DNA from: Verrucomicrobiota bacterium | GTDB taxonomy: Bacteria > Verrucomicrobiota > Verrucomicrobiia > Opitutales > Oceanipulchritudinaceae | Direction of reading: 5' to 3' | Length of the DNA stretch: 64,000 bases | Assembly (NCBI GenBank): GCA_033762955.1 | Contig: JANRLC010000048.1 | Span: 1-64,000, forward strand | In this document: positions 19,991 through 51,520 of the stretch, piece after piece | Position numbering within the stretch: position 1 is the first letter of the stretch | How the letters are laid out: each line of letters opens with the position of its first letter | Program-made: the position numbers and the translations under genes | Notes under the pieces: model-generated | Databases searched by the model: none | Told to the model about the DNA's origin: nothing | What the model saw: the letters and a program-made list of their open reading frames with translations, nothing else

Positions 19991-20052
19991 ATGATCTGCC
20001 TGATCCGACTGATCCGACCGATCTGTCGTATCCGACCCATCCGACAGATCAT

Positions 20053-20838
20053 CTAGATCACGTGAGTGCCTTTGCAGTCGGGATATTTGGTGCAGCCCCA
20101 GAACTGCTGACCGGCATTTTTACCGCTCTTCGCTGTGCGGAGAGCCATTTGGGCACCGCATTGGGGGCACTTGGGAATGGAATCGGTCTGGCCTGAAGGC
20201 GCAGGCGCAGCGGGATGGTCTTGTGTTCGCCTGTGGACAAGGCGGGCAGTGGCGAGCTGTTCGCTGTAACCGCCTTCCTCGATGAAGCCTTTCTCCAAGG
20301 CGGTGATTTGGCGGTCGAGGAGGAAGTTCGCCTGGTGGATGAGGCATATTAGCGCGTTCGCGCGAACAGCGGGGTCGGCGTGCTCTAGCCAGCGCGAATA
20401 GAGCGCTGCGCGCTGGTGATCGCACAGATCAGACAGATCGGTCGGATCCGCCTGATCCGCCCGATCCGACCGATCCGCTTGCTTTTTCCGGTACACCAGC
20501 GGCACCCTCCGGACCGCGAGGGATTCCGGGTCATCGGGAGCCCATGCCGGCAATCTGCGGTGGCGGAGGAAGTCCTCGTAGTCGAGTAGCAGCTCTTCGA
20601 GGCTGGCGCGGGCGACATTAACGAGCCGTAGCTCGGTCTGCGATGAGGTAGCAGAGGCGCGGCTACCCTCGGCGATATTCTGGCGACCACTGCGTGCGGC
20701 CTGTACCATCTGGTCCACGGTGCGAGAGCGGGCATCGAGGAACTTCTCGCAGAACCAGACGGTTGCATCGTAGATGAGCGTCGTTGTCTGGAAGCTGCAC
20801 GTATCGCGGTAGCCGCCACTGGGTCGGAGTTTCTTCAT
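20053..20838 (-). CDS. four-helix-bundle protein fused to a topoisomerase-type C4 zinc ribbon, with an internal low-complexity insert
   Basis: N-terminal 4HB signature (IYDATVWFCEKF ... QNIAEGSRASATSSQTELRLVNVARASLEEL). C-terminus CPQCGAQMALRTAKSGKNAGQQFWGCTKYPDCKGT. The DRSDRADQADPTDLSDL stretch is encoded by 9-nt GATCCGNCC tandem repeats. Confidence 0.6.
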   Translation of the reverse strand: MKKLRPSGGYRDTCSFQTTTLIYDATVWFCEKFLDARSRTVDQMVQAARSGRQNIAEGSRASATSSQTELRLVNVARASLEELLLDYEDFLRHRRLPAWAPDDPESLAVRRVPLVYRKKQADRSDRADQADPTDLSDLCDHQRAALYSRWLEHADPAVRANALICLIHQANFLLDRQITALEKGFIEEGGYSEQLATARLVHRRTQDHPAAPAPSGQTDSIPKCPQCGAQMALRTAKSGKNAGQQFWGCTKYPDCKGTHVI

Positions 20839-20872
20839 GTCGCGAGATAGGTCGAGTTTGCAGAGAGTTTGC

Positions 20873-21211
20873 TTAAACTTCAGCCTTCACGTGCTCGTGG
20901 TAAACGCGCAGCAGCTCTGTCACCAATATCCCCTCTATCGTCATCCCCTTGTAGCCCGCATCGGCAATTGAGAGATCGCCCAGGCAGGCGTTGCGGATGC
21001 TGGCCCCGGTCAGTGCGACATTAAAGAACTTAGCCCCACGCAGATTGACATCGTCAAGGCTGGTCGCGCTCAGGTTGACATTATGGAATTTCGATTGGGA
21101 AAGATTCACATTTTCAAACTGCGCCCCGCCCAGATTGACATCTGTAAACTCCGAGCCGCCCAGATCAGCGTGCTCCGCCTTGTACTTTCCACATTTAAGC
21201 TCGGTGCTCAT
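20873..21211 (-). CDS. pentapeptide-repeat protein
   Basis: MSTELKCGKYKAEHADLGGSEFTDVNLGGAQFENVNLSQSKFHNVNLSA... shows A(D/N)LxG repeats. It is a paralog (about 90% aa identity) of 39847-40185. Confidence 0.75.
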   Translation of the reverse strand: MSTELKCGKYKAEHADLGGSEFTDVNLGGAQFENVNLSQSKFHNVNLSATSLDDVNLRGAKFFNVALTGASIRNACLGDLSIADAGYKGMTIEGILVTELLRVYHEHVKAEV

Positions 21212-21256
21212 GGTTCGATGGTGTTGAGGTTGGTGACGAAAGCACAAGTACTGTGT

Positions 21257-21769
21257 TTATTGGGTGATAATCAGCGTCTTAAGGATACTATTATCGCTTT
21301 GTGTACCCATGTACCAGAACATGCTGAATCCCGAAATGAAGAGCAACCAAATGATGCCAAAAACCATGCTCATTTTGGCTGATTGACTAAAACCACACGA
21401 GAGAACGGATCGGGAGGCGTCCGAAGGATCGTATCTAACCCCAACTGATTTTGCCGTTCGAAGGCGTCTGACAATTTCATTTTGGTTCTCTCGATTGCTA
21501 CCGCCAGAGTAGCCATATGCAATACGATTCCCTGTGTAAGTTACACCAGATACGACATAGTCATACTGAACTTCGCACCTAAATGTTCTGCCTTTGCGGT
21601 GGTATACTCTTTTGAGTTCACAAGCGGTTATCCGCCCTTCTGTCGTTGGCCAACCACGGGCAACCGAGGACTTGCGCCATGAGTAGACCCCATAGCCCAG
21701 TATGCCAAAACCAATGAGGAAAAACACGACGATGATGATAAGTACGCCAGATGCAGACATAGCCTTCAT
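21257..21769 (-). CDS. DUF3592-family membrane protein
   Basis: TM-flanked beta-rich domain with TTEGRI ... RVYH ... Y.Y..G..Y.G ... YDP pattern. The start is chosen at MKAMSASGVLIIIVVFF. Confidence 0.55.
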   Translation of the reverse strand: MKAMSASGVLIIIVVFFLIGFGILGYGVYSWRKSSVARGWPTTEGRITACELKRVYHRKGRTFRCEVQYDYVVSGVTYTGNRIAYGYSGGSNRENQNEIVRRLRTAKSVGVRYDPSDASRSVLSCGFSQSAKMSMVFGIIWLLFISGFSMFWYMGTQSDNSILKTLIITQ

Positions 21770-22419
21770 GAGTTGGGATAGCGGTATTTCTGTGGCATAC
21801 CTGCTCCAGAGTTGCAAGCGCATTACGGTTACGTAGTGGTCTGTAGGACGCATCTCACTTTCTGGACATATTAAATAGGAATGGCCGCAAAAAGTCGCAA
21901 AAATAGATACAAAAATGAAAGACACCAGCTCGCATCGTGCGTATGCCTTGAGTGTTCGTTAACCTCTGCATTCCTTTTTTAATTTTTGTGCCTTCTTGCG
22001 GCTAAAAATCCCTCGGCTAAAGCCAGCTATCCAAAAACTGAGATGCGCCCTGGTCTGTAGGGTCATCCAAGTGGCTGCAACTGCAACAATTCCGGGAGCG
22101 GTCGTCCTATAAACGCTGGAAGACACACGGGCAAGATGCCGCCAATATGCCTGGGCCACTTAGTGAAATAATCCAATCACTGCGAGATGCACCACTTCCG
22201 CAGTTCCTACACTGCATGAAAACAACGCGCTCGGAAAAGTACTCTGGGAACCAATCGCTCAAGAAAATGCAGAAGGGTGGGAGAGTGAGGAGAGGCAAAG
22301 TGGTCGGTGTTCGTGTACAAGTTGGAGTTCACGCTTCAGCGTGTCCGGGTATGGGGAGTAGAGAACAAATATCTCACGCCCACTTCGCTCAAGACGCCTA
22401 GACGCAAAGGATACGATGA

Positions 22420-22650
22420 CGCGACTTTTCAAATAAATAAAGGATCGGGAGCGCTGAAGGCGCGACCCAAGGGAGTTGTAGGACCGCTCCTTAGGTCGCG
22501 CCTTCAGCGCTCATGGTGTTTTACTGGTCTAAACCTAGGCCGTCGGCCTAGGCTGGGGCTGGATCGCGCCTTCAGCGCTACCAAGGCAAATTGGGTTCAT
22601 CTCATTTCCCATGACTTCAGGATGTCTGATGTTAGTGTCGAAAAAAAACG
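22420..22650. mobile_element. MITE-like palindromic repeat, copy C
   Basis: GGATCGGGAGCGCTGAAGGCGCG ... GTCGCGCCTTCAGCGCTCATGG ... GTCTAAACCTAGGCCGTCGGCCTAGGCT ... GACTTCAGGATGTCTGA matches copies A and B. Confidence 0.65.
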
Positions 22651-23461
22651 GACAGAACCACATCGTGATCCTGTCCGCTTGATTACTGTCAGTCAGTGTC
22701 ACGGAACACCGAACACGAAGCAAAGCGAAGCGTCTGCTTTAACCGGCTAGGCGGCTTGGCTCATGGGTTCGGCTTCCGTCCGGATTACTTTGAGGTGCTT
22801 TACCTTGTCTTCTTCTGATCTGCTTATCGTCTGAAATCGCCTCTTTCGCTCGACACCTGAGCCTCTCTCATCTTCGGAGAACGTCTGAACTCAGCCGCGC
22901 GGAGGGTGCATCGCAGTTTTTGGACAATAAGCAATAGAAGCGGACTGGCGAAGGCACCAGCGCTTACATTCCCAACCGGTAACCAGCCACAGATGTCACT
23001 GATTCACACGGATAGAAGCAATCGCATCCGTGGCTAATCCATCTAATCTACACCCAATCTGTGGCCAAATGAGCGATCCGCCGCCGCATGGCCGTATCAT
23101 CCGCATTGGCGGCGAATACCGTGACTTGCGCCGTATTGAAGCGCATCCGGCTACGACCGCAAAGCCTCCCCGCTCATAGTGCGCGGTTAGCCCAATTCGG
23201 GTCCGCTGCGCTCAGATGACGCGGGCTGTCAGGCCCTGCTCATAACACAAAACGCAAAGGCGAATCGCCCGCGCCGCTCCGGGCTTGTTCAACCATGGAT
23301 GTAGTCGGAGATTCGTTCCTCATCTCCGCTACATCCTTTCGAAACACGATGCCTATTAAATATGCGCATTTAACCTACCACTTCCCTTTGTTTAAGCCAT
23401 CTCACAAATTGAGCATCGGCATATATATGACGTTGTGTTTAGTTCGGCTCCTTTGGTCTTC

Positions 23462-23800
23462 TCAACATTTAGATAGGGCGTCATTCTTTAATTTCTCCCC
23501 CAGTGATCTCAAGTCATCTATAATCCGATTCAACAATTGGATGTCGGTCGCATAAATCTGTTCATATAATTTGATTAGTTTATCTGAATCTTCCAAGGAA
23601 TCACCGAAGTGGAATGTCGCATTGCGAACTCGAACAAACTTATCGACGCGGGCTATAACCTTTCGGACTCGTTTTTTCTCTGCTCTTGTTTCGTCGGAAA
23701 GTGCGCCTAGCGCATCGAGTTTTCGATGCCACTCATTCAATCCGGCCCTTATTTCATAGAGGGCAGCTAAAACTTGCTTCTTAATGGCAATCTCCGTCAT
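23462..23800 (-). CDS. cassette ORF, HEPN-like (RNxxxH motif) hypothetical protein
   Basis: The 112-aa ORF has KFVRVRNATFHFGD, which fits the HEPN/DUF86 Rx4-6H motif. Its ATG overlaps the stop of an upstream 56-aa ORF (ATGA). Confidence 0.45.
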   Translation of the reverse strand: MTEIAIKKQVLAALYEIRAGLNEWHRKLDALGALSDETRAEKKRVRKVIARVDKFVRVRNATFHFGDSLEDSDKLIKLYEQIYATDIQLLNRIIDDLRSLGEKLKNDALSKC

Positions 23801-23967
23801 GCCGTGATGCTGATTTTTTTCTTTTCTTCTTTCAGGAAGGCGTCGTTGAACGCGCTAAGATAGGCATTCAACGCCGAATTTACATTCTGCCAGCCGACAA
23901 CCATGCGTCGGTATGTGCGCTGGGGTTCTGTTGCGCCGCGAATCCACTCGATTTGGGGATGCTTCAT
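23797..23967 (-). CDS. small cassette ORF (56 aa), possible partner/antitoxin of the HEPN-like gene
   Basis: MKHPQIEWIRGATEPQRTYRRMVVGWQNVNSALNAYLSAFNDAFLKEEKKKISITA. It starts 7 bp downstream of an attC R-prime box. It is absent from the ORF track because it is under 60 aa. Confidence 0.35.
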   Translation of the reverse strand: MKHPQIEWIRGATEPQRTYRRMVVGWQNVNSALNAYLSAFNDAFLKEEKKKISITA

Positions 23968-23973
23968 ATTTTT

Positions 23974-24080
23974 GCCGAACGATAAAGCTCAGACACCCCG
24001 CTGGGGATTTCCGAACTCAATAGTCTTCTCGTAAGCGCTGGGCGTCATCTGGGTTGTCTGTAGCGTCTTTCTTGTTAGTC
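23974..24080 (-). other. integron attC site
   Basis: Top strand GCCGAACGATAAAGCTCAGACACC ... GGTTGTCTGTAGCG ... GTTAGTC. Confidence 0.55.
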
Positions 24081-24325
24081 TGCGTCATTAGTCACCAAAA
24101 AGTTTGTCTCTTATCTCTTGAATCATCGAACGCACGTCATCACCAGTGCAGCTGCTGTTCGCTAACTGGCTCGAAATTCGGTCCAACTTCACAGGTATGC
24201 TGAGAATCGCGCACTCCAGTCGACGTACTCGCTCGGCTTTCTGCTCCACCAACTGACGAGCTCGAACAAGCTCTCGGCGTTTCTCTCGTTCTGCTTTGCT
24301 CGGAATGGTTACTGTGTTTGGTGTG

Positions 24326-24427
24326 GCCTAGCGTCAAAGATGAGCCACGATGCAACTTGGCGCGTTTCCTGACGCTGCAGGAATCGTGACAGGTCGTGTC
24401 GTTGGCTCTGGTGCCTTGTTGTTAGGC
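24326..24427 (-). other. integron attC site (long, lies inside the 3' end of the ORF 24334-24825)
   Basis: Top strand GCCTAGCGTCAAAGATGAGCCACG ... CGTTGGCTCTGGTGCCTTGTTGTTAGGC. Confidence 0.65.
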
Positions 24428-24825
24428 TGGATTTCTTCGAGCCTCTCCCAGCGCATTTCAAATTCGGGAATCATGTAGCTCTTCGGCTGAAGCCAGAATG
24501 AAACCCGCTCTTCCTTCACTCCGCGATGAGCTCTGGCTCTGACCTCCTCTGGCCTCAAAATGAAAATTCCAGGAGTGGCGTCTAAATTATTCACGATGAT
24601 CCAAAAGTCACCCATAACTTTATCGAGAGAATTTCCAAGCGGCACAGGACTCTTCTTGCTCAGTGCTTTCACTTGGATGCCGATGTAACGAGTGGCCGTT
24701 AGATCGTAGGCAATGATATCAATGCCCTTCGCATTTCGCGCGGTCGGCATGACATTCCAACCACGCTTTGACAACTCGTAGCACACGAAGTAAAGGCCTA
24801 CATTTCCTACGATCTGGGCGTTCAT
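24334..24825 (-). CDS. cassette ORF, Hjc/NucS-like PD-(D/E)xK nuclease-fold protein
   Basis: GNVGLYFVCYELSKRGWNVMPTARNAKGIDIIAYD ... IGIQVKAL fits the G..GE..V...L...G..V......DIIA ... QVK nuclease pattern. The C-terminal roughly 30 aa are translated through the attC. Confidence 0.5.
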   Translation of the reverse strand: MNAQIVGNVGLYFVCYELSKRGWNVMPTARNAKGIDIIAYDLTATRYIGIQVKALSKKSPVPLGNSLDKVMGDFWIIVNNLDATPGIFILRPEEVRARAHRGVKEERVSFWLQPKSYMIPEFEMRWERLEEIQPNNKAPEPTTRPVTIPAASGNAPSCIVAHL

Positions 24826-24831
24826 GATCTT

Positions 24832-24900
24832 GCCTAATGTGGAAGCTGAGGTGCGCTGCGAGCGTCAGCGAGTAGCGTCACCTTCAGCAACTTGTTAGCC
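24832..24900 (-). other. integron attC site
   Basis: Top strand GCCTAATGTGGAAGCTGAGGTGCGC ... CTTGTTAGCC. The stop codon TAA of the upstream cassette gene lies inside the R'' box GGCTAAC. Confidence 0.6.
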
Positions 24901-25389
24901 TAAATAATCAATCTTCAATGATCTCCTAAGCTTTTTCGCCGATTCGAGTGCGGTCCTCAAATTATCATCCATTGTATTCCCAACAAACTTTTCAATTAAT
25001 TCCAGTTGCTCATCTTTTGAATCAAGCACCAATCTAACAAGGGGATCCAACTCTCCTGCAACGGTATCAAATATTACTCCTTCCTTCCCCATCATTATTT
25101 TGTAATATAAATCTTCATTCTCTTGAAAGAGATTGATATCAAATCTCCCCTTGGCCCAATCAGAAACATGGCCTAGAAAACTATCTTGCTTAATATGATT
25201 TTCCAACTTCCCGGACAATCGGTTCACCTCTAAGGTATACTTGATGATGGGGTTTTTTATATTTACTATTTTTGACAGGAATAAAATCAATCCTTCCCAG
25301 TACTGATCATCCTCAGTGTTTATATATATGCAGATGTAAGATGGGCCATCCTTTGATATGATATTAGATTTGAGTATAGCTGTTTTCAT
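24895..25389 (-). CDS. cassette ORF, hypothetical protein (about 36% GC)
   Basis: 164-aa ORF bounded by attC sites on both sides. Confidence 0.5.
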   Translation of the reverse strand: MKTAILKSNIISKDGPSYICIYINTEDDQYWEGLILFLSKIVNIKNPIIKYTLEVNRLSGKLENHIKQDSFLGHVSDWAKGRFDINLFQENEDLYYKIMMGKEGVIFDTVAGELDPLVRLVLDSKDEQLELIEKFVGNTMDDNLRTALESAKKLRRSLKIDYLG

Positions 25390-25399
25390 AAATTGTCTG

Positions 25400-25464
25400 G
25401 CTAACGTAGAAGTGAGCGGCCTGCGCTGCTTTTCGCACAGGTCCGCTCTACTGCCGGGTTAGCC
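25400..25464 (-). other. integron attC site
   Basis: Top strand GGCTAACGTAGAAGTGAGCGGCC ... CTACTGCCGGGTTAGCC. The stop TAA is embedded in the R'' box. Confidence 0.6.
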
Positions 25465-26319
25465 ACGTTTTCGCTCAAGTATTTCATGGACGTCTTTGGC
25501 TAGCTGCCTATATGAGAGCGTTGCCATCTTCCTATCGCATAGTGCGACGACATGGCCCAGATCGTGCTCACCTTCAAACGGAAAGGAATCCGTGACGGCC
25601 GGGATATTTAGCGAGCCGATCCATTTACCTAGAATTCCAACGGAAATGACAATGTTAGATGGACCCAACCCCGCGATTACACACGAGCCCTTAATCAACT
25701 GACAAAAATGGCTCAACAATTCGCTCTCCTCTTTATCTGCACTTTCGGCTTGGGAAAATTCGTCATATCCTCGCAAACCGAAGTGTGCAAAGTCCTCGCG
25801 TTTTGATTCTGAGTTGAAGTTCATTAGTGCGCGCAGCTCGTTATGCTTGACATGAGTACGGAATAGATCGCCGTAGATGAAGTAACCAGCAGACAGCGCA
25901 ACCTTAGCAACGAAGCGTTTGCGGCCGTGAGCTTCAATATTAAATTGCGACGAAATCGTGTTTCCGCCGATTTCATGCGGCTCAAGGTGGCGCTTAGTCA
26001 TCGCATCCCAAATGAGCATGCCCTCTTTGCCACGCAAGGTAACTTGAATGGGCCGCTTTTCGTCGCCCAGATGCGACTTTTTCAATAACACCGTCGGCGG
26101 CGTGTTGCTGTGTCCCCTTGCGTCAAACTCACGACGGCGCATCAGCGTAAGAAAGTCGTTTGCCAACACTCCATCGATTCTTGAACCAACCTTCGCATTG
26201 AAGTCCTTCTCTACGGGAATACAGAACTGGTTTGATCCTCCGAGCGAAAGTGGAATGATGTGCTCGGAGTTCATTGCCTCTACAGGCAATTCAAGGTCTG
26301 TGTAAGGACACCACGGCAT
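25459..26319 (-). CDS. cassette ORF, HNH endonuclease-domain protein
   Basis: NSEHIIPLSLGGSN is an HNH motif near the N-terminus. The 286-aa protein has an uncharacterised C-terminal domain. Confidence 0.6.
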   Translation of the reverse strand: MPWCPYTDLELPVEAMNSEHIIPLSLGGSNQFCIPVEKDFNAKVGSRIDGVLANDFLTLMRRREFDARGHSNTPPTVLLKKSHLGDEKRPIQVTLRGKEGMLIWDAMTKRHLEPHEIGGNTISSQFNIEAHGRKRFVAKVALSAGYFIYGDLFRTHVKHNELRALMNFNSESKREDFAHFGLRGYDEFSQAESADKEESELLSHFCQLIKGSCVIAGLGPSNIVISVGILGKWIGSLNIPAVTDSFPFEGEHDLGHVVALCDRKMATLSYRQLAKDVHEILERKRG

Positions 26320-26321
26320 AG

Positions 26322-26395
26322 CGGCTAGCGTATGAGATCAGTCACGGCCCAGCAAGGCCGTTGGCTGTAGCGACTGGTTGGTCGGTTTGGTTTTC
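26322..26395 (-). other. integron attC site (boxes degenerate)
   Basis: Top strand TAGCGTATGAGATCAGTCACGGCCCAGCAAGGCCGTTGGCTGTAGCGACTGGTTGGTC is nearly identical to the attC at 49597-49657. Confidence 0.55.
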
Positions 26396-27851: not shown

Positions 27852-27990
27852 TGGCTATCAGTTTGATATATGGAAAGTTTTCCGTCCTATAGCAAGCCGT
27901 AGACGGAAACTTTATACATGTTATTGACTATAGAAACGGAATTCATGAAAAATGTGAAGCTTGCAGTCTGATTATCCGTCCTATTAGCTA
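27852..27990. promoter_or_regulatory. attI recombination site region, and probable Pc/Pint promoter region
   Basis: The intI 5' flank abuts the first cassette. It is about 85% identical to 50352-50495; similarity to that second copy stops exactly at the first-cassette boundary (27852 / 50352). Confidence 0.6.
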
Positions 27991-27995
27991 ATGAC

Positions 27996-39619: not shown

Positions 39620-39639
39620 CGATCTGTCGGATCCTCTAG

Positions 39640-40185: not shown

Positions 40186-40344
40186 GGTTTGATGGGAATG
40201 AGGTTGGTGACGATTGCACATCACTGTGTTTATCCGGAAATAATAATGTGTGTTAAGTCGCTTGCCGTAAACGCAAAAGCGGGCGGGACTTTGTGGGTCC
40301 CGCCCGCGAAGGCTTGTTACTGCGTTGGTTGCCGGGTTGTAGGA

Positions 40345-44684: not shown

Positions 44685-44718
44685 GACGGCTAGATGTTGG
44701 GGAAGGTGATTATGCGCG

Positions 44719-44809
44719 TGCCGAACGTCTAGCTCATCCACGGCGGGGATGGAAGCCCGAATTCAAACTGGAGCGTTACCCGCCGTTGGATGGAGCGTCT
44801 TGTTCGCCT
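44719..44809 (-). other. integron attC site
   Basis: Top strand GCCGAACGTCTAGCTCATCCACGG ... CGTTGGATGGAGCGTCTTGTTCGCC. Confidence 0.6.
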
Positions 44810-44826
44810 TTGGTTTATGAGTTTGT

Positions 44827-45405
44827 CTATGCTGGATGAGTAAGTCGTGTGATGATCTCTTCAACGTCACGGACACCAGCAATAGCTAAGAAACCGTGGT
44901 CAGTGGATTGTCTGCCACCATCACCATCACCCGCCCAAGTCCGCTCAAAAATGAGGTCTCCAGTCCCATCTGGCTTCTGAACCCGTCGGATGTCTTTGAG
45001 TCGGTCGGGATCAAATGAACGAATTGTCATGGAACCAAATACACCACCAGCTAGGACAATAGCTCGCTGATCCGTGATGACATAGGCAGTTCTTCGAGCC
45101 ATTCGTCGCATCCAGTATGGACTGGAAAGCATACCAAATCCGATGAGGACGAATGGCAGGCCGAACAGTGGGAAAATGCCAAAGCCCTGACTAAAGTCGG
45201 GCATCTTGAACCCGCTGGCTCCAGCAATCCAGAAAAGAGCAAACGCTGTCCAAGGTATGCCAAACAGCACAAGTCCGATACTACGCCGGGCAAAACAACC
45301 AGGAATGGGCTGTCCAGTCCATGTGACACGTTCTCCATTTCGCAGTTCAGCATCAATAAGACGAGAAACATCGTGCGGTAAATTATTTGTGTGGTGGAAT
45401 TGCAT
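44827..45405 (-). CDS. cassette ORF, membrane protein (2 TM plus a bPH-like domain), hypothetical
   Basis: 192-aa ORF starting 16 bp after the R-prime box. Confidence 0.5.
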   Translation of the reverse strand: MQFHHTNNLPHDVSRLIDAELRNGERVTWTGQPIPGCFARRSIGLVLFGIPWTAFALFWIAGASGFKMPDFSQGFGIFPLFGLPFVLIGFGMLSSPYWMRRMARRTAYVITDQRAIVLAGGVFGSMTIRSFDPDRLKDIRRVQKPDGTGDLIFERTWAGDGDGGRQSTDHGFLAIAGVRDVEEIITRLTHPA

Positions 45406-45420
45406 AGGGTTTCATTTTTT

Positions 45421-45487
45421 GCCGAACGGTAAAGATGAGCCACGAGGCATGACAGCGGTGGACGTTGGCTCTGGTGCCTGGTTCGGC
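45421..45487 (-). other. integron attC site (best-preserved exemplar)
   Basis: Top strand GCCGAACGGTAAAGATGAGCCACGAGGCATGACAGCGGTGGACGTTGGCTCTGGTGCCTGGTTCGGC. R''/R' are GCCGAAC/GTTCGGC. L''/L' are GAGCCA(A)CG / CGTGGCTC with one extrahelical base. Confidence 0.75.
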
Positions 45488-45488
45488 C

Positions 45489-45851
45489 TCATGTGATAAC
45501 CGAAGATACCGCGACGCGACAATTCTCGGCCAAACCGTAAACCTTGTCGGCTTCGTAGTCGAATAGCTCGTAGTGCACCGATTCCCAGCCTCTCGAGCTA
45601 ATCTTATCTACGTCGAAACCGATGAGCTGGTGAATGGATGCAATGCGGAAATCGCGAACATTGCCGAAAGTGACATCGATCTGCCCCTTCTTTCCTTTGA
45701 GCACAAAGGAGACAATCTTTTCGAATCGCTCGCGATCTTCCTCGTAATATGTGTCGATAGACAGGCACTTAAGATCCGTAAAATCACCGAATGCGCAGTC
45801 GCCATACTGTGCTTTGACATCGGCGTAACCTGGAAGATCAGCGAGCGACAT
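45489..45851 (-). CDS. cassette ORF, hypothetical protein (120 aa)
   Basis: The stop codon directly abuts the R'' box. Confidence 0.5.
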   Translation of the reverse strand: MSLADLPGYADVKAQYGDCAFGDFTDLKCLSIDTYYEEDRERFEKIVSFVLKGKKGQIDVTFGNVRDFRIASIHQLIGFDVDKISSRGWESVHYELFDYEADKVYGLAENCRVAVSSVIT

Positions 45852-45859
45852 TGTATTTT

Positions 45860-45958
45860 CCGAACGTTATAGATCAGCCACGACTATGGCTGGCGCACAG
45901 CCTGCGCAAGCAGGATGCGTGACTGACATAGTCGTTGTGCTGTAGCGCCTGATTAGGC
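45860..45958 (-). other. integron attC site
   Basis: Top strand CCGAACGTTATAGATCAGCCACG ... GTCGTTGTGCTGTAGCGCCTGATTAGGC. Confidence 0.65.
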
Positions 45959-45964
45959 TCATGT

Positions 45965-46663
45965 TTATTGTATTTCTTTGCAGATAAAACTCCGTACGAC
46001 CGGTTGCGCTAGAATCATAGCTAATTCATCGTGCAAAACTTTTTCCTTGTTTCCGCCTGGAGGTGATGGATGGCTAAACTTAATAACTAAACGCTTGCGG
46101 TGAATGAATATTCGGTCTGCTGGACACGTGAACTCAGTGCTGGGATGGTATGCTGCGTGATAAGACCAAAAGGTGTTAGCGCACAAGATCACGTCGGGAC
46201 AAATAAGATCAATTTGCTCAGTGAGAAACTCTTTATCTCTGATTGCCGCTTGCTGTATCAGCTTCTGTGAGGAGGTAGTCTCTCCTAGCTCCTTGGAAAC
46301 ATTTACATAGGCGATATCTGACAACTGTATGGTTCCGGCATACCTTGAGTCAAATGCATCATACTCAGCTTGAGAACTTGATGCGTTACCGGTGTAAACC
46401 GATTTAATCAGATCCCTCCATCGAACAATATTGCGCCATATAATTGGGAATTTCCCGTTTCGCGCAATTATTTCTATTGGGCTCCCAGATATGTTATACC
46501 AATTCGCTTTTTTGTGTGATTCCTTCATCAGGAACAAAATCCTAGGCTTTGCGGTCATCCACGCTTCAGGGCTTAGGATGCCGTCCCGCACAAAGGGATT
46601 ATACCCCCGAGTGTGAGCCCACCTGTCTTGTAGTTCGGTTAACTTTTCGATTTCGATGTCCAT
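45965..46663 (-). CDS. cassette ORF, hypothetical protein (232 aa)
   Basis: Bounded by attC sites on both sides. Confidence 0.5.
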   Translation of the reverse strand: MDIEIEKLTELQDRWAHTRGYNPFVRDGILSPEAWMTAKPRILFLMKESHKKANWYNISGSPIEIIARNGKFPIIWRNIVRWRDLIKSVYTGNASSSQAEYDAFDSRYAGTIQLSDIAYVNVSKELGETTSSQKLIQQAAIRDKEFLTEQIDLICPDVILCANTFWSYHAAYHPSTEFTCPADRIFIHRKRLVIKFSHPSPPGGNKEKVLHDELAMILAQPVVRSFICKEIQ

Positions 46664-46669
46664 GTTATT

Positions 46670-46770
46670 TCTACCTTACGTCATAGATGAGCCACGAGCG
46701 TGCTCGACGCCAAAGCCTGCCCCGCAGCCGACGTGCCAAGCACGCTCGTTGGCTCTAGCGAATGATCAGG
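46670..46770 (-). other. integron attC site (R-prime box degenerate)
   Basis: Top strand CCTTACGTCATAGATGAGCCACGAGCGTGCTCG ... CAAGCACGCTCGTTGGCTCTAGCGAATGATCAGGC. Confidence 0.55.
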
Positions 46771-46771
46771 C

Positions 46772-47455
46772 TCATTTTTCATTCATCCAATTTAGTGTAT
46801 TGTTTATAGCCAGACACCATGCATCGTAAGCCGGACGCGACGGATGAGGTATGGAGTATATTAAGCATCCATCGACCACTGCGCTATTCCGGAATCCAAT
46901 CGGACCTTGGGGGCTCAATAACTGGTTCACCGCTGCTAAACCTGCATGACCTCCAACAAACACGACATCAGGTCTCAGTGCCATAATCTCAGCCCAGATG
47001 TATCTTCCGGTGTCAGAATGGCCGACTGCAGATATCGCTGCGTAATCCTGCGGTTTCACTGAATTGGACTGTGCTCGGATATTGTAATATATCGTTCTGT
47101 CTAAAGTGTCTTCAATCATATCATCGTTGGCAAACGCTGCGCTAAGCATCTCTCGCGACGCCGCTATCTTCTTCTGGAAACACGCTAGTGCTACATGGAG
47201 AACAGCAAAAGTGTATCGAGTCGTCTTAGTGCCCGTGTCGCCGGCATCATAAATCCAATCAATTAGGTCGTCTCGTGTAACATCGAACACGCCCATTTTC
47301 TCATAGCCATACGGTTCCATATTAACGGCGACAACTTTGAATGGCTCATTCCAGTAGCGGTCCGTTGTCGGTCCGTAGAACATGTGATGTGTCGCTCCGG
47401 AATCAAGAAGGTGCTTCCGTAAGCTAGCGCGGGCTTCGTGGAATTTATGGATCAT
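46772..47455 (-). CDS. cassette ORF, hypothetical protein (about 227 aa)
   Basis: Start moved to the internal MIHKFHEAR so that the R-prime box GTTCGGC lies 19 bp upstream, as in the other cassettes. Confidence 0.45.
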   Translation of the reverse strand: MIHKFHEARASLRKHLLDSGATHHMFYGPTTDRYWNEPFKVVAVNMEPYGYEKMGVFDVTRDDLIDWIYDAGDTGTKTTRYTFAVLHVALACFQKKIAASREMLSAAFANDDMIEDTLDRTIYYNIRAQSNSVKPQDYAAISAVGHSDTGRYIWAEIMALRPDVVFVGGHAGLAAVNQLLSPQGPIGFRNSAVVDGCLIYSIPHPSRPAYDAWCLAINNTLNWMNEK

Positions 47456-47474
47456 GAATTGATTGATTAATTCT

Positions 47475-47639
47475 GCCGAACGCATAGGTCAACGACGGGA
47501 GCCAGCCTCCGATGACGTTCGATGTGTCTCTGAGCGAATCGGCTGGCTCACGTTCACTGGACCGTCTGGTTCGCCTTCTTCTTCATTTTCGGTCCCATGA
47601 CGCGAAACAGGCTTTGTCTTCAATCCAGCCTTGTTCGGA
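47475..47639 (-). other. integron attC site, unusually long or compound
   Basis: Top strand GCCGAACGCATAGGTCAACGACGGGAGCCAGCC ... GGCTGGCTCACG ... GGTTCGCC ... TTGTTCGGA. Confidence 0.45.
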
Positions 47640-47642
47640 TTT

Positions 47643-47897
47643 TCAGAAGAAGACAATCGGTCCACCGCTAGCGGTGCATGACTCTGCCAGATAAACGGAG
47701 ATCACATCAGGTTCATCCTGTGAAATGCCCACAACCACAAGATTGTAAGCCTTGGCCGCAGACTGGACAATCAGCGCGACTTCTCCTTGGGACGCTGCCA
47801 TTTCACCAGCGGCATTCTTACAGTTAAAATCGCCTTGCTCAGACACGCAGCCTGCCACAAATACAAGCGCGAAGGAAATGATGCGATGAAGGGCCAT
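47643..47897 (-). CDS. cassette ORF, small lipoprotein (84 aa)
   Basis: MALHRIISFALVFVAGC gives the lipobox. It starts 6 bp after the R-prime box. Confidence 0.45.
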   Translation of the reverse strand: MALHRIISFALVFVAGCVSEQGDFNCKNAAGEMAASQGEVALIVQSAAKAYNLVVVGISQDEPDVISVYLAESCTASGGPIVFF

Positions 47898-47902
47898 TCT
47901 AT

Positions 47903-47990
47903 CGGCGAACGTAAAAGTGCGCTACGGATGAAACTAAGCCTAAGACGTTTGCTCCCCCGACTTGCTCTACAATGCGGGGCAACTTAGAAT
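47903..47990 (-). other. integron attC site (degenerate)
   Basis: Top strand CGGCGAACGTAAAAGTGCGCTACGG ... the far box is weak (AACTTAGAA). Confidence 0.4.
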
Positions 47991-48625
47991 CTAGATATCA
48001 AACCTAAAAAATAGGAAATAATAGCAGTAATAATAACTAGGATAATGTTATCCTTATTACGATACCAGAAACTTTTATACTTATGTTTTCTGTTTAAGAA
48101 GATTTTTGATGAACCAATAAATGAGTGTCCAAGAAATAAGATATAAAATATGACCAGTGATAGCAGTAAACCAGCTGGATACTTAATGAAATTATTCAGG
48201 GGAAGAAATGGGGTAAGATATACTATCAGAAAAATAGACATACCACATATCATTCCGAGAATACCATTCCACCAATAGCCAGTAGGATGCCATGAGTACC
48301 ATTTAACATGTGAGCTTAATAAATCCTTTACGAAGGGCGCATCTTTTTCGTTTTGATAGGGACGGCTAATTGTAACACCTCTTGGCTCAATATCTATGCG
48401 AATTTCATCAAAGGAGTTCTTGTACCTGAAAATAAGATTAAGGGAAGAAATGTGATCCCTTGATACGTGCTCCAATAATTCTTCTAATGACTCGTACTCC
48501 GTATTGTCATACATCACACTCAATTCTGAGTCATCAGGAAGTTGTCGGATTAGATTATCTAAATCATCAAGGTATAATCTAATTGGAGGTATCCTAATAG
48601 GGGCAGTGCTTCTGATTATTTTCAT
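47984..48625 (-). CDS. cassette ORF, membrane protein (about 214 aa), hypothetical, about 33% GC
   Basis: Start moved to MKIIRSTAPIRIPP, 6 bp downstream of the R-prime box. The longer ORF-track start lies inside the attC. Confidence 0.45.
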   Translation of the reverse strand: MKIIRSTAPIRIPPIRLYLDDLDNLIRQLPDDSELSVMYDNTEYESLEELLEHVSRDHISSLNLIFRYKNSFDEIRIDIEPRGVTISRPYQNEKDAPFVKDLLSSHVKWYSWHPTGYWWNGILGMICGMSIFLIVYLTPFLPLNNFIKYPAGLLLSLVIFYILFLGHSFIGSSKIFLNRKHKYKSFWYRNKDNIILVIITAIISYFLGLISRF

Positions 48626-48630
48626 TTTAT

Positions 48631-48750
48631 TAGAACGTACAAGATTCAAGATGAGCCAAGTGTATGCTTGGCGCGAATCGTGTCCTACAAAAGGGAAGAA
48701 AAGCACGATTCGTGACAATCATACGCATTGGTTCCATCGCCATGTTAGCC
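48631..48750 (-). other. integron attC site (long)
   Basis: Top strand TAGAACGTACAAGATTCAAGATGAGCCAAG ... CATGTTAGCC directly followed by the stop TAA of the upstream gene. Confidence 0.5.
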
Positions 48751-49587
48751 TTAGTTTCGTTTTATTTTATGCACTCCATCAGGTGCTTGAATCTGATTAT
48801 CTGTCTGAACTTCGATCAGTTGTAAATCTGTAACTACGCTTTGGTTGTATCCAAATTTTAGTTCAACATATTTATGATTTCCGTCGGAATGTTCATCTAG
48901 GCCCCATGCTCTCTTAATGACCAATCTGGTTTCTCTTTCATATGAATATTTGTGTGGCAGGTATAGCCCGCAAATGGAGGATGCGTCCTCCCAAAAAAAC
49001 TCTTTATTTAAACTATTTTTGGTCCAGTCCTGGACTTCTTTAAAGAAATCAGCCCATTTATCTATACCGTTTCCGTAGGTAATGCGCCGAAGGCATCCCG
49101 ACTGAACTGTCAATCTGAATCTAAACCTAAACCCATTACCTTTAGCGAATACAGTCCAAAAATTATGTTCTTCATTTGGTGTGAGATCAGTGTCTGTCAT
49201 CGATGTGTAGTAAAATCCATCGGCTATAGATTGAACATATCGAGGCCTCTGGGAGGCCTCATCTATTCCGAGAGGATACTTGTAGTCAAATTTCTCAAGA
49301 AAAGCCCGTATCTCATCCTCTTGGATTCTTTTTTCAACTGAATATAGCCTTAATCGACTGGTGGTTAAAATACTTTCACCGCTCACCTTATTCGTGTAAT
49401 GGTAGAACTCGCTGTCGTGTATCGGAGGGCAAATTTGATTGGTTAATTGCTTGGATATGCGCCCACCTTTGATCGAGTCGATTACCACGCGCTCAAGAAA
49501 GTTGAAGTCGTCTTTGGTAGCTTGAATTCCGAATTCGTGTTTGGTGAAAATATCATTCAACCCCTGGATGTATTTATCGTATTCCAT
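48751..49587 (-). CDS. cassette ORF, hypothetical protein (278 aa, low GC)
   Basis: Bounded by attC sites on both sides. Confidence 0.5.
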   Translation of the reverse strand: MEYDKYIQGLNDIFTKHEFGIQATKDDFNFLERVVIDSIKGGRISKQLTNQICPPIHDSEFYHYTNKVSGESILTTSRLRLYSVEKRIQEDEIRAFLEKFDYKYPLGIDEASQRPRYVQSIADGFYYTSMTDTDLTPNEEHNFWTVFAKGNGFRFRFRLTVQSGCLRRITYGNGIDKWADFFKEVQDWTKNSLNKEFFWEDASSICGLYLPHKYSYERETRLVIKRAWGLDEHSDGNHKYVELKFGYNQSVVTDLQLIEVQTDNQIQAPDGVHKIKRN

Positions 49588-49596
49588 TGTATTTCT

Positions 49597-49657
49597 GGCA
49601 AACGTTAAAGATCAGCCACGGCCCAGTAGGGCCGTTGGCTGTAGCGCCTGGTTAGCC
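49597..49657 (-). other. integron attC site
   Basis: Top strand GGCAAACGTTAAAGATCAGCCACGGCCCAGTAGGGCCGTTGGCTGTAGCGCCTGGTTAGCC. Confidence 0.7.
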
Positions 49658-49750
49658 TCATTTTCATTGGCTGTCAAAATGTGCGAAGACCTCGATAAGC
49701 GAGGAAGCAAAGGGCACCCAGCAGCGCCAACATGACAATTACCGCGAGCT

Positions 49751-49990
49751 TCACAGGCGCGCTTTCACTCTCTGATCATCGCGAGCGCGGGGAAAACTCT
49801 TCACAACTTCGAAGGCAATCCATTCGTGCGGCTCGCCCTCAACATGCGCGCCGTCGATAGGAATCAAGCCTTCGCTTTTCGACATCGCACCGGACTTAAT
49901 TTGCTCCGCAAGCGCGATGATGTCTTTCTGCTCCCCCGCGACTGTGACGCCGGGAGATGGTCCGCCTTCTACTTTCACGAGGAGCTTCAT
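49751..49990 (-). CDS. cassette ORF, small hypothetical protein (about 79 aa)
   Basis: Overlaps the upstream ORF by 29 nt in the ORF track; the start is moved to MKLLVKVEGG. Confidence 0.4.
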   Translation of the reverse strand: MKLLVKVEGGPSPGVTVAGEQKDIIALAEQIKSGAMSKSEGLIPIDGAHVEGEPHEWIAFEVVKSFPRARDDQRVKARL

Positions 49991-50012
49991 TCTTTGGCTC
50001 TCTAGTGCCTGG

Positions 50013-50345
50013 TTAGCCGGTCTTGAAGCGATCCAAAACATGTTTTTGAATGGCAGATAAAATCAGCATCGGCATAGATCCGACAACAGTCTGCACGAAA
50101 AGCATCTTATTGAAGCTGAGACGCTGCGCAGTGACGTCGTCCATAAACCAAAGAGTCACCAACAGCGAGACAATCGCCGAAATAGCTAATCTCGCGAGAA
50201 ACCATCCATATCGTCCGATTTGCTCTTCCTTGGAGTACTTAACGACGGGCACTGCTTTCTTACGTCGGGCTAGAGGAAGCATCAGCGGCAAGAAGCCGCC
50301 AAGTAATCCAAATAAGATCGCACTTATAAAGAGTTTCGATTCCAT
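50013..50345 (-). CDS. first cassette ORF next to the attI remnant; small membrane protein (110 aa)
   Basis: Three predicted TM helices; starts 7 bp from the attI-cassette junction. Confidence 0.45.
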   Translation of the reverse strand: MESKLFISAILFGLLGGFLPLMLPLARRKKAVPVVKYSKEEQIGRYGWFLARLAISAIVSLLVTLWFMDDVTAQRLSFNKMLFVQTVVGSMPMLILSAIQKHVLDRFKTG

Positions 50346-50351
50346 AGTAAA

Positions 50352-50495
50352 TTGGCTAAGGGTTTGATATATGGAAAATATCCGTCCTATTGCAAGCAGT
50401 AGATGGAATATTTTCCATGGTATTGGCTATAGAAATGAAATTCTGGAAATGCGAAGCGTGAAGTTTGTTTTCCGTCCTATTAGCTAATGACAGGA
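50352..50495. other. attI-like site copy with deleted intI
   Basis: ...TATGGAAAATATCCGTCCTATTGCAAG ... TTTTCCGTCCTATTAGCTAATGACAGG matches 27852-27995 including the intI start context (GCTAATGACATGG in copy 1). Downstream, intI is replaced by AGATTTCAGATTCC repeats. Confidence 0.7.
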
Positions 50496-51520
50496 TTACA
50501 GATTTCAGATTCCAAATGGCGGAAGGCAGATGGCAGGAGCCGAACCAGTCTCCCTGTTACTCCCATCGCGAAACACGGGGCGTTGTGAATGGAAAATGGA
50601 GAATAGAGAGTGGAGAATGGGGATGGGGGACGAATGGAGAATGGGGATGGCGGAAAGCAGATGGCAGAAGGCAGATTTAAGATTCCAAATTCCAGATTCT
50701 GAACGCTGAAGGCTGATAGCTTCTCCTGTTACTCCCGGGGCGTGTTGTTGGGCTCTGAGCCTGCTTCTCCGCCAACAAACTGCGGCATGTAGGACTTATG
50801 CAAGCTGCCGCCCGTGGTCGGGAGAGCGGTTCCGTGGACAACTTCCCGATTGCTGAAGGTGGATAAATGCTGTGTTTCCCGAAGACACGGGAGGATGAGA
50901 CTGCACTCCAGATTGGGGAACCAACCTTGGCAAGCGGGAAATAGCGTAGTGTAGGCACAAAGTTACAAAGGCACAGAGTCGGAAAGGCAGGAGGAAGAAG
51001 GCAGCAGGCGGATTTAAGATTACAGATTTCAGATTCCAAATGGCGGAAGGCAGATGGCAGGAGGCAGATTCCAGATTACAGATTCCAAATTACAGATGGC
51101 AGAATGCCGGAAGGCAGCAGATTCCAGATTACAGATAGCAGAAGTCGTGGCGGGGGTTGTAGGAGTGGCGGCAATCTTGGTACGAGCGGTGGCAACGGTG
51201 GTACGAGTGGCGGAAGCGGTTGCGGGAGTGGCGGCAACGGTTCCGCGCGTGGTGGCAACGGTGGTACGGGTGACGGCAACGGTGGTACGGGTGACGGCAA
51301 CGGTGGTACGGGTGACGGCAACGTCGGTACGAGTGACGGCAACGTCGGTACGAGTGGCGGCAACGGTGGTACGAGTGGCGGAAGCGGTTGCGAACGAATG
51401 GAAAATGGTGAATGGAGAATGGAGAATGGGCGGGAGGGGGGCGGAATGGAGAATGGGCAGATTCCAGATTTCAGATTCCAGATTTAAGATTCTGAACGCT
51501 GATAGCTTCCTTCTTCCCAT
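50495..51520. repeat. composite repeat module paralogous to 29000-29960 (simple repeats, 210-bp unit at 50790-51000, 21-nt tandem array about 51150-51400)
   Basis: See 29000-29960. Confidence 0.75.

What the first reader, a model, noticed from the sequence alone, without database searches (positions are those of the whole stretch)
20032..51520. The two integron loci are diverged copies of one large duplicated module
Both loci share the same gene order. The order is a four-helix-bundle/zinc-ribbon gene (20053-20838, with a remnant at 39640-39810), a pentapeptide-repeat gene (20873-21211 and 39847-40185, about 90% aa identity), and a variable insert. Each array then has a conserved distal end with the hairpin AAAGCGGACAGAACCACATSGTGATCCTGTCCGCT (22655-22690 and 42885-42920) and the tail CTAGGCGGYTT..CTCATGGGTTCGGCTTCSGTCCGGATTAC (22748-22800 and 42940-42995). 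Then come the cassettes, attI, intI (present only in copy 1), and the same composite repeat module (29000-29960 and 50495-51520). The cassette content differs completely between the copies. The level of divergence points to an old duplication followed by independent cassette turnover and loss of intI in copy 2.
Basis: seen in the sequence. Interest (0 to 1): 0.7.

Follow-up and report, generated by a model that had tools for sequence, protein, structure and literature searches.

The report
Duplicated chromosomal integron; one copy lost integrase
A Verrucomicrobiota genome fragment carries two diverged copies of the same ~10-kb integron platform 9.6 kb apart, and the second copy has since lost its integrase gene by a clean deletion; this is a clear example of a known route to integrase-less cassette arrays, not a new kind of system.

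Summary
Self-BLAST gives eight collinear, same-strand homologous patches (74-94% identity) between 20039-29915 and 39622-51500. Locus 1 is a complete integron. It has an intact IntI (TIGR02249, 416 bits; full-length match to VchIntIA), an attI, and five attC sites on the minus strand. Locus 2 has eight attC sites of the same family and a homologous attI, but no intI, so it is a CALIN that keeps its attI. The two loci share no cassettes.

Homology breaks exactly at the attI/first-cassette junction. In copy 2 it also breaks 6 nt into the intI ORF, where about 1.08 kb is missing and the join lies in heptamer repeats.

The two pentapeptide genes differ by dS 0.42 with dN/dS 0.12, so the split is old and both genes are under selection. 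Copy 2 carries further decay: a nonsense codon plus a 605-bp out-of-frame deletion in the four-helix-bundle gene, and a truncated terminal attC.

In-genome duplication cannot be separated from acquisition of a second homologous platform, because no close relatives exist in any collection searched (nearest IntI 67%, nearest DnaE 69%). The contig comes from a MAG, so read-level validation is still needed. This is a new member of a known kind and of modest interest.

The parts
20053..20838 (-). Copy 1: intact four-helix-bundle (23S rRNA IVP family) + 4helix_suffix + Zn-ribbon gene; left end of module (homology starts at 20039)
   Evidence: Pfam PF05635/PF01396; NCBIfam TIGR04258 71.8 bits, TIGR02436
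20873..21211 (-). Copy 1: pentapeptide-repeat gene (112 aa)
   Evidence: Pfam PF00805; 90.3% aa identity to copy 2, dN/dS 0.12
21257..22645 (-). Copy 1: variable insert (DUF3592 gene 21257-21925; half of a MITE-like element 22433-22628), not homologous to copy 2
   Evidence: Pfam PF12158; repeat alignment
22646..22680 (-). Copy 1: terminator-like hairpin plus T-run at the distal end of the array
   Evidence: 16-pair stem plus T-run; 88% identical to copy 2
22734..22796 (-). Copy 1: conserved 'tail' (reads as the last 16 codons of an ORF ending in TAG in both copies)
   Evidence: 84% identity; read directly from the sequence
22797..23971 (-). Copy 1 only: trailing segment (overlapping ORFs 23812-23970 and 23462-23800, plus ~660 bp without a listed ORF) that is deleted in copy 2
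   Evidence: Alignment A4: copy-2 42925-43077 is contiguous, whereas copy 1 is split into 22734-22796 and 24002-24065
23972..26383 (-). Copy 1: five attC sites (23972-24080, 24326-24427, 24832-24900, 25399-25464, 26323-26383)
   Evidence: R''-L''-loop-L'-R' folds; covariance model R1, minus-strand hits only, 23.8-62 bits
24081..27854 (-). Copy 1: cassette array (ORFs 24140-24355, 24334-24825, 24895-25389, 25459-26319, 26407-27123, 27142-27846); GC 47-50%
   Evidence: ORF list; mostly no Pfam hit; GC profile
27855..27995 (.). Copy 1: attI region and intI leader; homology to copy 2 ends at the first-cassette junction (…ATATATCAAAC|TGATAGCC in cassette orientation)
   Evidence: Alignment A2, 84% identity with blocks of 16-23 invariant nt
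27996..28997 (+). intI: intact integron integrase (NCBI MDX2110119.1), present only in copy 1
   Evidence: TIGR02249 416 bits against cutoff 265; full-length alignment to VchIntIA 2A3V, E 1e-85, including the integron-specific insertion and the R/K/HxxR/H/Y residues; accession
29002..29915 (.). Copy 1: right-flank noncoding module: heptamer repeats 29010-29217, 212-bp element 29263-29473, 21-bp tandem array 29540-29915
39622..39813 (-). Copy 2: pseudogene of the 4HB/Zn-ribbon gene (stop at codon 3; 605-bp out-of-frame internal deletion)
   Evidence: Translation and alignment
39847..40185 (-). Copy 2: pentapeptide-repeat gene (112 aa), intact
40258..42875 (-). Copy 2: variable insert (347-aa ORF 40345-41388 with no family hit; 86-bp tandem array 42174-42667)
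42876..42908 (-). Copy 2: terminator-like hairpin plus T-run
   Evidence: 15-pair stem
42925..42987 (-). Copy 2: conserved 'tail'
43022..43088 (-). Copy 2: truncated terminal attC (R''/L'' half only), homologous to copy-1 attC 23972-24080
   Evidence: 82.7% identity; weak model hit of 11.8 bits against 23.8 for copy 1; no L' partner in the sequence
44721..49657 (-). Copy 2: seven complete attC sites (44721-44808, 45421-45487, 45859-45958, 46673-46771, 47475-47575, 47904-47970, 49597-49657)
   Evidence: 47904-47970 was not in the training set, E 0.011
43089..50354 (-). Copy 2: cassette array (10 minus-strand ORFs from 43125-44741 to 50013-50345, none with a Pfam hit); GC 41-51%
50355..50492 (.). 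Copy 2: attI region, intI leader and the first 6 nt of the former intI ORF (A-GGAT); intI itself is absent
50493..51500 (.). Copy 2: right-flank module: heptamer repeats, 212-bp element 50793-51004, 21-bp tandem array 51141-51393, more heptamers 51396-51492

Best explanation
The two loci are paralogous copies of one sedentary chromosomal integron platform. The platform runs: 4HB/Zn-ribbon gene, pentapeptide gene, variable spacer, terminator, cassette array, attI, intI, noncoding right module. The copies sit in direct orientation in two intergenic sites of a housekeeping region: IMPase|GH42, and TIGR03790-family gene|dnaE. They are 9.6 kb apart.

After the split, both copies stayed functional long enough for every cassette to be replaced by IntI-mediated excision and insertion at each attI. 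Copy 2 then decayed in three ways:
- A deletion of about 1.08 kb, with its right end in a heptamer-repeat tract, removed intI from codon 3 onward.
- The 4HB gene acquired a nonsense codon and a 605-bp deletion.
- A deletion of about 1.2 kb truncated the terminal attC.

Copy 2 is now a CALIN that still has an attI and mostly canonical attC sites. The intact IntI of copy 1, 21 kb away, could still act on it in trans.

Shown here: homology and collinearity, attC arrays, an intact IntI, absence of intI in copy 2, the pseudogene lesions, and the selection pattern.
Inferred: that the event was an in-genome duplication, the order of events, and any present activity in trans.
For: - Eight collinear same-strand patches, with alignments.
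- IntI is a true, intact integron integrase.
- A covariance model of attC finds significant sites only on the minus strand and only inside the two arrays, 5 and 8 sites. Both arrays use the same attC family.
- No cassettes are shared and there is no intI remnant.
- Pentapeptide pair: dS 0.42, dN/dS 0.12. In the 4HB N-terminal fragment 7 of 9 differences are at third codon positions, yet there is a stop at codon 3 and a frameshifting deletion.
- attI homology ends at the cassette junction on one side and 6 nt into the intI ORF on the other, then resumes in the heptamer tract downstream of intI.
- The terminal attC is complete in copy 1 and truncated in copy 2.
- The spacer between the copies encodes lpxA-like, pdxA, Fe-S assembly, infC and amidase genes, so the setting is chromosomal. 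No flanking genes are duplicated.
- Both arrays are 5-15 points lower in GC than their flanks.
- CALIN origin by intI loss is an established hypothesis (PMC4889954; PMC8618304).
Against: - No close relative is available to show a one-copy ancestral state. The nearest IntI is 67% identical and the nearest DnaE 69%, with no synteny.
- No transposase, target-site duplication or other vehicle for a 10-kb dispersed duplication was seen.
- Identity is uneven across patches (74-81% up to 97.5%), so one neutral divergence time does not fit every segment. Selection or gene conversion must be invoked.
- Both attI/first-cassette junctions and 3 of 5 R' boxes in array 1 lack the canonical GTT triplet. Current recombination activity is therefore uncertain.
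- The contig is from a MAG and could not be checked against reads.
Confidence: 0.7

Rival explanations
1. The second platform was not duplicated in this genome. It was acquired from a related lineage carrying the same conserved integron neighbourhood and inserted next to dnaE, for example by recombination of a transferred island. The copies would then be xenologues rather than paralogues. The later intI loss would be the same as in the main explanation.
For: Divergence is large (dS 0.42). The flanking genes are not duplicated. Integron integrases and their arrays are commonly transferred horizontally (general knowledge; PMC8618304). No relatives are available to exclude this.
Against: No integration machinery, tRNA target or island boundary is seen at either end. 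Both copies share the genome's own idiosyncratic heptamer and 21-bp repeat sequences and the same attC family. The two copies lie only 9.6 kb apart in direct orientation, which a local duplication explains more simply.
Confidence: 0.2
2. Assembly artefact: the MAG contig wrongly joins or repeats one integron locus, or combines loci from two strains.
For: The source is a metagenome-assembled contig of 66.8 kb, and it contains many repeats.
Against: The copies differ by 6-26% in every shared patch and have entirely different cassettes and different unique flanks. The 9.6-kb spacer is unique housekeeping DNA with no repeat that could cause a false join. GC content outside the arrays is uniform.
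Confidence: 0.05
3. There is no module-level homology. The resemblance comes only from genome-wide repeats and from features that any two integrons served by one integrase would share.
For: Heptamer repeats occur at several other sites in the window, and attC sites within a genome are typically alike (PMC4889954).
Against: Unique, non-repetitive sequences are shared in the same order on both sides of the arrays: 580 bp across two genes (E=0), the 212-bp element (E 1e-87), the terminator, the tail and the attI region. None of these occurs elsewhere in the window.
Confidence: 0.02

Closest known systems
Sedentary chromosomal integron (for example the Vibrio cholerae superintegron with IntIA, or the Xanthomonas ilvD-linked integron)
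   Same: Locus 1 has an integron integrase with the family-specific insertion, transcribed divergently from an attI. Next to it is an array of same-strand cassettes separated by homogeneous attC sites. The cassettes are mostly of unknown function and low in GC, and the locus is embedded among housekeeping genes.
   Different: The array is small (5 attC sites). The host is a Verrucomicrobiota MAG. The attI is uncharacterised. Several R' boxes and the attI junction lack the canonical GTT.
[quoted passage not shown] 2016, PMC4889954)
   Same: Locus 2 has eight attC sites and no intI or intI pseudogene within 10 kb, in a genome that encodes IntI elsewhere. About half of the CALINs in that survey were in such genomes. 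Loss of intI is one of the proposed origins.
   Different: Here the origin can be read directly. The attI, the intI leader and the first 6 nt of the ORF remain, and a paralogous complete copy sits 9.6 kb away. In the 2016 survey most CALINs (95%) had no recognisable intI trace, and their attI status was not assessed.
Genomes with more than one integron (20% of integron-bearing genomes in PMC4889954)
   Same: There are two integron-type loci in one genome.
   Different: These two are demonstrably copies of one platform, including non-integron flanking genes. Only one copy retains its integrase.

Membership tests
Complete integron (locus 1) | Tyrosine recombinase of the IntI clade with the integron-specific additional domain and intact catalytic residues | tested here: met
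   TIGR02249 scores 416 bits against a cutoff of 265. It aligns end to end with VchIntIA 2A3V, including the insertion and the R, K, HxxR, H and Y residues.
Complete integron (locus 1) | Two or more attC sites (R''-L''-variable loop-L'-R', imperfect hairpin with extrahelical bases) in one orientation next to intI | tested here: met
   There are five sites from 23972 to 26383, all on the minus strand, 61-109 nt long. Caveat: the model was trained on these same sites. Independent support comes from their folds and from one untrained hit in array 2.
Complete integron (locus 1) | attI recombination site between intI and the first cassette | tested here: inconclusive
   The position is inferred because homology between the copies stops exactly at the first-cassette junction next to a TTAGCC/ATAGCC R'-like box. 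The core triplet reads GAT in copy 1 and CTT in copy 2 instead of GTT. Function cannot be tested with these tools.
Complete integron (locus 1) | Pc promoter driving the cassettes | not testable with these tools
   The sigma-70 consensus scan found only one weak plus-strand site at 27924-27953, facing intI. Verrucomicrobiota promoters are not covered by the scan.
CALIN (locus 2) | At least two attC sites with no integron integrase nearby (4 kb in IntegronFinder's definition) | tested here: met
   There are seven complete attC sites and one truncated site from 43022 to 49657. tblastn with IntI finds nothing in the window except 27996-28994. The nearest intI end is 14 kb from the array.
Segmental duplication (paralogous modules) | Collinear homologous blocks in the same order and orientation, including unique sequence on both sides | tested here: met
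Segmental duplication (paralogous modules) | Both copies arose within the same lineage (sister relationship against outgroups; one-copy state in relatives) | not testable with these tools
   No relative closer than 67% (IntI) or 69% (DnaE) exists in the genome, metagenome or protein collections.

The most novel reading that the evidence does not exclude
One integron integrase serves two attI platforms. Under this reading, the integrase-less copy is a maintained satellite platform rather than a dead relic. Its attI region (15.6% divergence against about 32% at synonymous sites of the adjacent gene) and 6 of 8 canonical attC R' boxes would have been kept by selection, so that the IntI encoded 21 kb away captures and shuffles cassettes at both sites. 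The 212-bp element (94% identity overall, 97.5% in its core), which is far better conserved than any other shared segment, would be a cis-acting or RNA component of this platform type.
Probability: 0.15. Interest if true: 0.55.

Novelty: new member of a known kind. Interest (0 to 1): 0.3.

Why it matters
CALINs are as common as complete integrons, but their origins are mostly inferred, because very few retain any trace of intI. This locus preserves that history in one contig: a complete integron, and its paralogue caught shortly after a clean intI deletion with the attI still in place. It documents platform duplication followed by integrase loss as a concrete route to a CALIN. It also shows that cassette content can turn over completely while the platform ends persist. 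The pair of natural attI variants, together with their cognate IntI, could be used to test trans-activity. Finally, it extends well-resolved integron anatomy to Verrucomicrobiota. It does not change how integrons are understood to work.

Tried and rejected
1. Related genomes to test one copy against two:
- The genome-contig scan with IntI gave a best hit of 55% identity, in unrelated phyla.
- The protein search gave a nearest IntI of 67% and a nearest DnaE of 69%.
- The contexts of the two closest dnaE genes (L022, L023) show no synteny and no integron.
- Exact look-ups of the window's own IntI and DnaE returned no contig.

2. Metagenome DNA scans with a 24-mer from the 212-bp core and a 21-mer from attI gave no hits. 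blastn of the 212-bp element against plasmids gave no match.

3. The 212-bp element as a known or structured RNA, or as coding sequence:
- Rfam gathering and E-value searches gave nothing credible.
- Folding z-scores were +0.26 and +0.54.
- A 1-nt indel and the lack of an in-frame start argue against coding.

4. Pentapeptide and 4HB genes as cassettes:
- There is no attC hit in 20000-22800 or 39600-42900.
- Homologues at 57-59% identity lie in long runs of small same-strand accessory genes (L024, L025). My attC model finds nothing there and none is visible by eye. This is inconclusive and was dropped.

5. A strict RYYYAAC…GTTRRRY regex scan for attC failed because this family uses GGCTAAC/GTTAGCC-type boxes. 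A covariance model replaced it.

6. A larger tandem duplication that included the flanks was rejected: there is no protein-level paralogy between 30-39.6 kb and 51.5-64 kb, or between the left flanks.

7. Defence-system annotation of the cassettes (PADLOC) gave one marginal hit only.

Full report
**Source.** The window is most of a 66.8-kb contig of a Verrucomicrobiota metagenome-assembled genome. The window's IntI and DnaE match NCBI MAG proteins at 100% identity. The IntI accession is MDX2110119.1, a singleton cluster.

**Checking the observation.** A blastn of the window against itself gives a chain of eight patches in the same order and orientation:
- 20039-20100 ~ 39622-39683 (87%)
- 20705-21283 ~ 39680-40257 (86.6% over 580 bp, E=0)
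- 22734-22796 ~ 42925-42987 (84%)
- 24002-24065 ~ 43014-43077 (87.5%)
- 27851-28001 ~ 50352-50496 (81%)
- 29002-29110 ~ 50579-50690 (74%)
- 29263-29473 ~ 50793-51004 (93.9%, E 1e-87)
- 29562-29885 ~ 51141-51393 (about 80%)

The shared sequence totals only about 1.6 kb of each 10-12 kb locus. The rest is cassettes and a variable spacer.

**Locus 1 is a complete integron.**
- The ORF at 27996-28997 (+) scores 416 bits on TIGR02249 'integron integrase' against a cutoff of 265.
- It aligns end to end with the solved V. cholerae IntIA (2A3V, E 1e-85). The alignment includes the integron-specific insertion and the catalytic R, K, HxxR, H and Y residues.
- To its left, on the opposite strand, lie ORFs with few or no family matches.
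- These ORFs are separated by 61-109-nt elements with the canonical attC layout: R'' GGCTAAC-type box, L'', variable loop, L', and R' GTTAGCC/GTTCGGC-type box, with extrahelical A residues.

**Testing the attC sites.** I built a covariance model from eleven such sites and searched the whole window with filters off.
- All hits with E < 0.05 are on the minus strand.
- They fall only in 23981-26383 (five sites) and 44722-49657 (seven sites). A weak hit at 43022-43088 (E 0.71) marks the truncated terminal site of locus 2.
- One site, 47904-47970, was not in the training set.
- No site flanks the pentapeptide or four-helix-bundle genes, so these are not recognisable cassettes.

**Locus 2 is a CALIN that keeps its attI.**
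- It has seven complete attC sites and one truncated site, and ten minus-strand ORFs without Pfam matches.
- It has no integrase. tblastn with IntI finds nothing in the window beyond locus 1.
- The 140 bp next to its first cassette aligns with the attI/intI-leader region of locus 1 at 84% identity, with invariant blocks of 16-23 nt.
- On the cassette side, homology ends exactly at the junction with the first cassette. In cassette orientation the junctions read …ATATATCAAAC|TGATAGCC and …ATATATCAAAC|CCTTAGCC.
- On the other side it runs through the leader and the first 6 nt of the intI ORF (ATGGAT against A-GGAT). It then jumps to the heptamer tract that lies about 90 bp downstream of the intI stop codon in locus 1.
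- Copy-1 positions 28002-29086 therefore have no counterpart.
- The exact right breakpoint is ambiguous because that region is low-complexity and partly duplicated in locus 2.

**The distal ends.**
- Both arrays end with a homologous attC. In locus 1 it is complete (23972-24080; L'' GCTACAGACAACCC pairs with L' GGGGTGTCTGAGC).
- In locus 2 only the R''/L'' half and part of the loop remain (43022-43088). The sequence then continues directly into the 'tail' that in locus 1 lies 1.2 kb further on.
- Locus 2 has therefore lost about 1.2 kb here, including the L'/R' half.
That makes it a terminator-like site at the end of the cassette transcription direction.

**The left flank.**
- Beyond a non-homologous spacer, both loci carry a 112-aa pentapeptide-repeat gene. 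The copy-1 spacer holds a DUF3592 gene and half of a MITE-like element. The copy-2 spacer holds a 347-aa ORF and an 86-bp tandem array.
- The two pentapeptide genes are 88.8% identical in nt and 90.3% in aa. Of 38 differences, 25 are at third codon positions. dS is 0.42 and dN/dS is 0.12.
- Next to it is a four-helix-bundle/4helix_suffix/Zn-ribbon gene. This gene is intact in locus 1.
- In locus 2 it has a stop at codon 3 and a 605-bp internal deletion that shifts the frame.
- Even so, 7 of the 9 differences in its first 134 nt are at third codon positions. This suggests that copy 2 of the gene was under purifying selection for most of the time since the split and was inactivated late.

**The right flank.**
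- It is a mix of heptamer tandem repeats, a unique 212-bp element and a 21-bp tandem array.
- The heptamer tracts also occur at 158-216, 2480-2524, 3798-3813 and 42806-42857. They are a general feature of this genome's intergenic DNA and are weak evidence for homology.
- The 212-bp element is the best-conserved shared segment, at 94.3% overall and 97.5% over a 118-nt core.
- It has no credible Rfam match and no folding signal. A 1-nt indel and the lack of an in-frame start argue against coding. It has no match in the collections searched. Its role is unexplained.

**Cassette content and setting.**
- No cassette protein of one array resembles any of the other (best E 0.07).
- Both arrays are lower in GC (41-51%) than the surrounding DNA (55-61%).
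- The 9.6 kb between the loci encodes GH42, a GNAT, an LpxA-like acyltransferase, PdxA, an Fe-S assembly protein, IF-3, an amidase and a TIGR03790-family protein. Locus 2 is followed by dnaE.
- None of the flanking genes is duplicated. The repeated unit is therefore the platform itself, placed in two intergenic sites in direct orientation.

**Interpretation.** An integron platform with its neighbouring genes became two copies. Both were active long enough for complete and independent cassette replacement. Copy 2 then lost intI. My additions:
- Copy 2 shows three separate late lesions: the intI deletion, the 4HB nonsense codon plus deletion, and the terminal attC truncation.
- Its attI and 6 of its 8 R' boxes remain canonical-looking, so the IntI of copy 1 could still act on it. 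CALINs are generally thought to be mobilisable in trans (10.1101/2025.06.18.660453, introduction).
- Against present activity, both attI/first-cassette junctions (GAT, CTT) and three of the five R' boxes in array 1 (GCT, ATT, GCT) lack the GTT triplet.

**Limits.**
- Whether the two copies arose by duplication in this lineage or by acquisition of a second homologous platform cannot be decided. The nearest IntI is 67% identical and the nearest DnaE 69%, with unrelated neighbourhoods. Scans of genome and metagenome collections found nothing closer.
- No mobility genes or target-site duplications mark the ends.
- Identity varies from 74-81% to 97.5% among the patches, so selection or gene conversion must have acted unevenly.
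- An assembly artefact is unlikely, given the divergence, the different cassettes and the unique housekeeping spacer. It cannot be excluded without reads.

**Comparison with what is known.** Cury et al. (PMC4889954) defined CALINs. They found them as often in genomes with IntI as without, and proposed integrase loss, rearrangement and off-site insertion as their origins. They found intI pseudogenes near only 5% of CALINs. About 20% of integron-bearing genomes in that study had more than one integrase. The same three origins are restated in PMC8618304. This locus fits the 'loss of intI' route and adds a platform duplication before it. It is a clear, well-resolved example in an under-sampled phylum, not a new kind of element.

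Noticed in passing
window 158-216, 2480-2524, 3798-3813, 29010-29495, 42806-42857, 50587-51492; also 19992-20050 and 20427-20478: Short tandem tracts of several different heptamers (GAATGGA, CAGATTY, GGCAGRA, GCAGTTG; 3-9 units each) are scattered through intergenic DNA. A 9-mer (GATCCGACC) occurs both downstream of and inside the 4HB gene, where it encodes a low-complexity linker. From memory, these resemble the heptameric STRR repeats of heterocystous cyanobacteria.
   Followed up: partly
window 29263-29473 and 50793-51004: A unique 212-bp noncoding element is 94% identical between the two loci (97.5% over a 118-nt core), far above every other shared segment (81-89%). It has no Rfam match, no folding signal, no consistent ORF and no match in the collections searched. 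Either it is under strong constraint or it was recently homogenised by gene conversion.
   Followed up: partly
window 10993-11333 (full), 7443-7648 and 22433-22628 (halves): A MITE-like repeat of about 340 bp has 16-bp terminal inverted repeats (CAGACATCCTGAAGTC … GACTTCAGGATGTCTG). One half-copy sits in the variable spacer of integron locus 1, next to the terminator.
   Followed up: partly
window 42174-42667: A tandem array of about 5.7 copies of an 81-99-bp unit (86-bp consensus, 93% matches), each containing a GC-rich hairpin (GCGGGCGAGCCGCCCGC). There are no spacers, so it is not CRISPR-like. It lies in the variable spacer of locus 2.
   Followed up: no
window 29584-29886 and 51155-51388: 21-bp tandem arrays (consensus GGTGGTACGAGTGGCGGCAAC, 11-14 copies) are present in both right-flank modules. 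Long ORFs run through them on both strands, but these are not conserved in frame between the copies.
   Followed up: partly
window 24326-26383 versus 43022-49657: The array that still has intI has more degenerate R' core triplets (GCT, GTT, ATT, GCT, GTT) than the integrase-less array (GTT in 6 of 8). Both attI/first-cassette junctions read GAT or CTT rather than GTT.
   Followed up: partly
window 26407-27123 and 25459-26319: Two cassettes in locus 1 carry nuclease-type domains: T5orf172/MUG113 plus a homing-endonuclease-associated repeat in one, and a weak HNH_5 match in the other. PADLOC gives only one marginal hit (PDC-S57, E 2e-4).
   Followed up: partly
window 23462-23970: Two overlapping small minus-strand ORFs (about 52 aa and 112 aa) follow the last attC of locus 1 and have no attC of their own. 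The arrangement resembles a toxin-antitoxin pair. Neither ORF has a Pfam hit.
   Followed up: no
window 14244-16730, 57157-59643, 59704-62307: Three paralogous minus-strand ORFs of 828-867 aa are 29-35% identical to each other. Two of them are adjacent. They were not annotated here.
   Followed up: no
L024 1-14000 and L025 (whole): Pentapeptide homologues at 57-59% identity lie in long same-strand runs of small accessory genes (glyoxalase, GrpB, OsmC, NUDIX, LysE, GFA, cupin, GNAT). The layout looks like a cassette array, but no attC was found with my model or by eye.
   Followed up: partly
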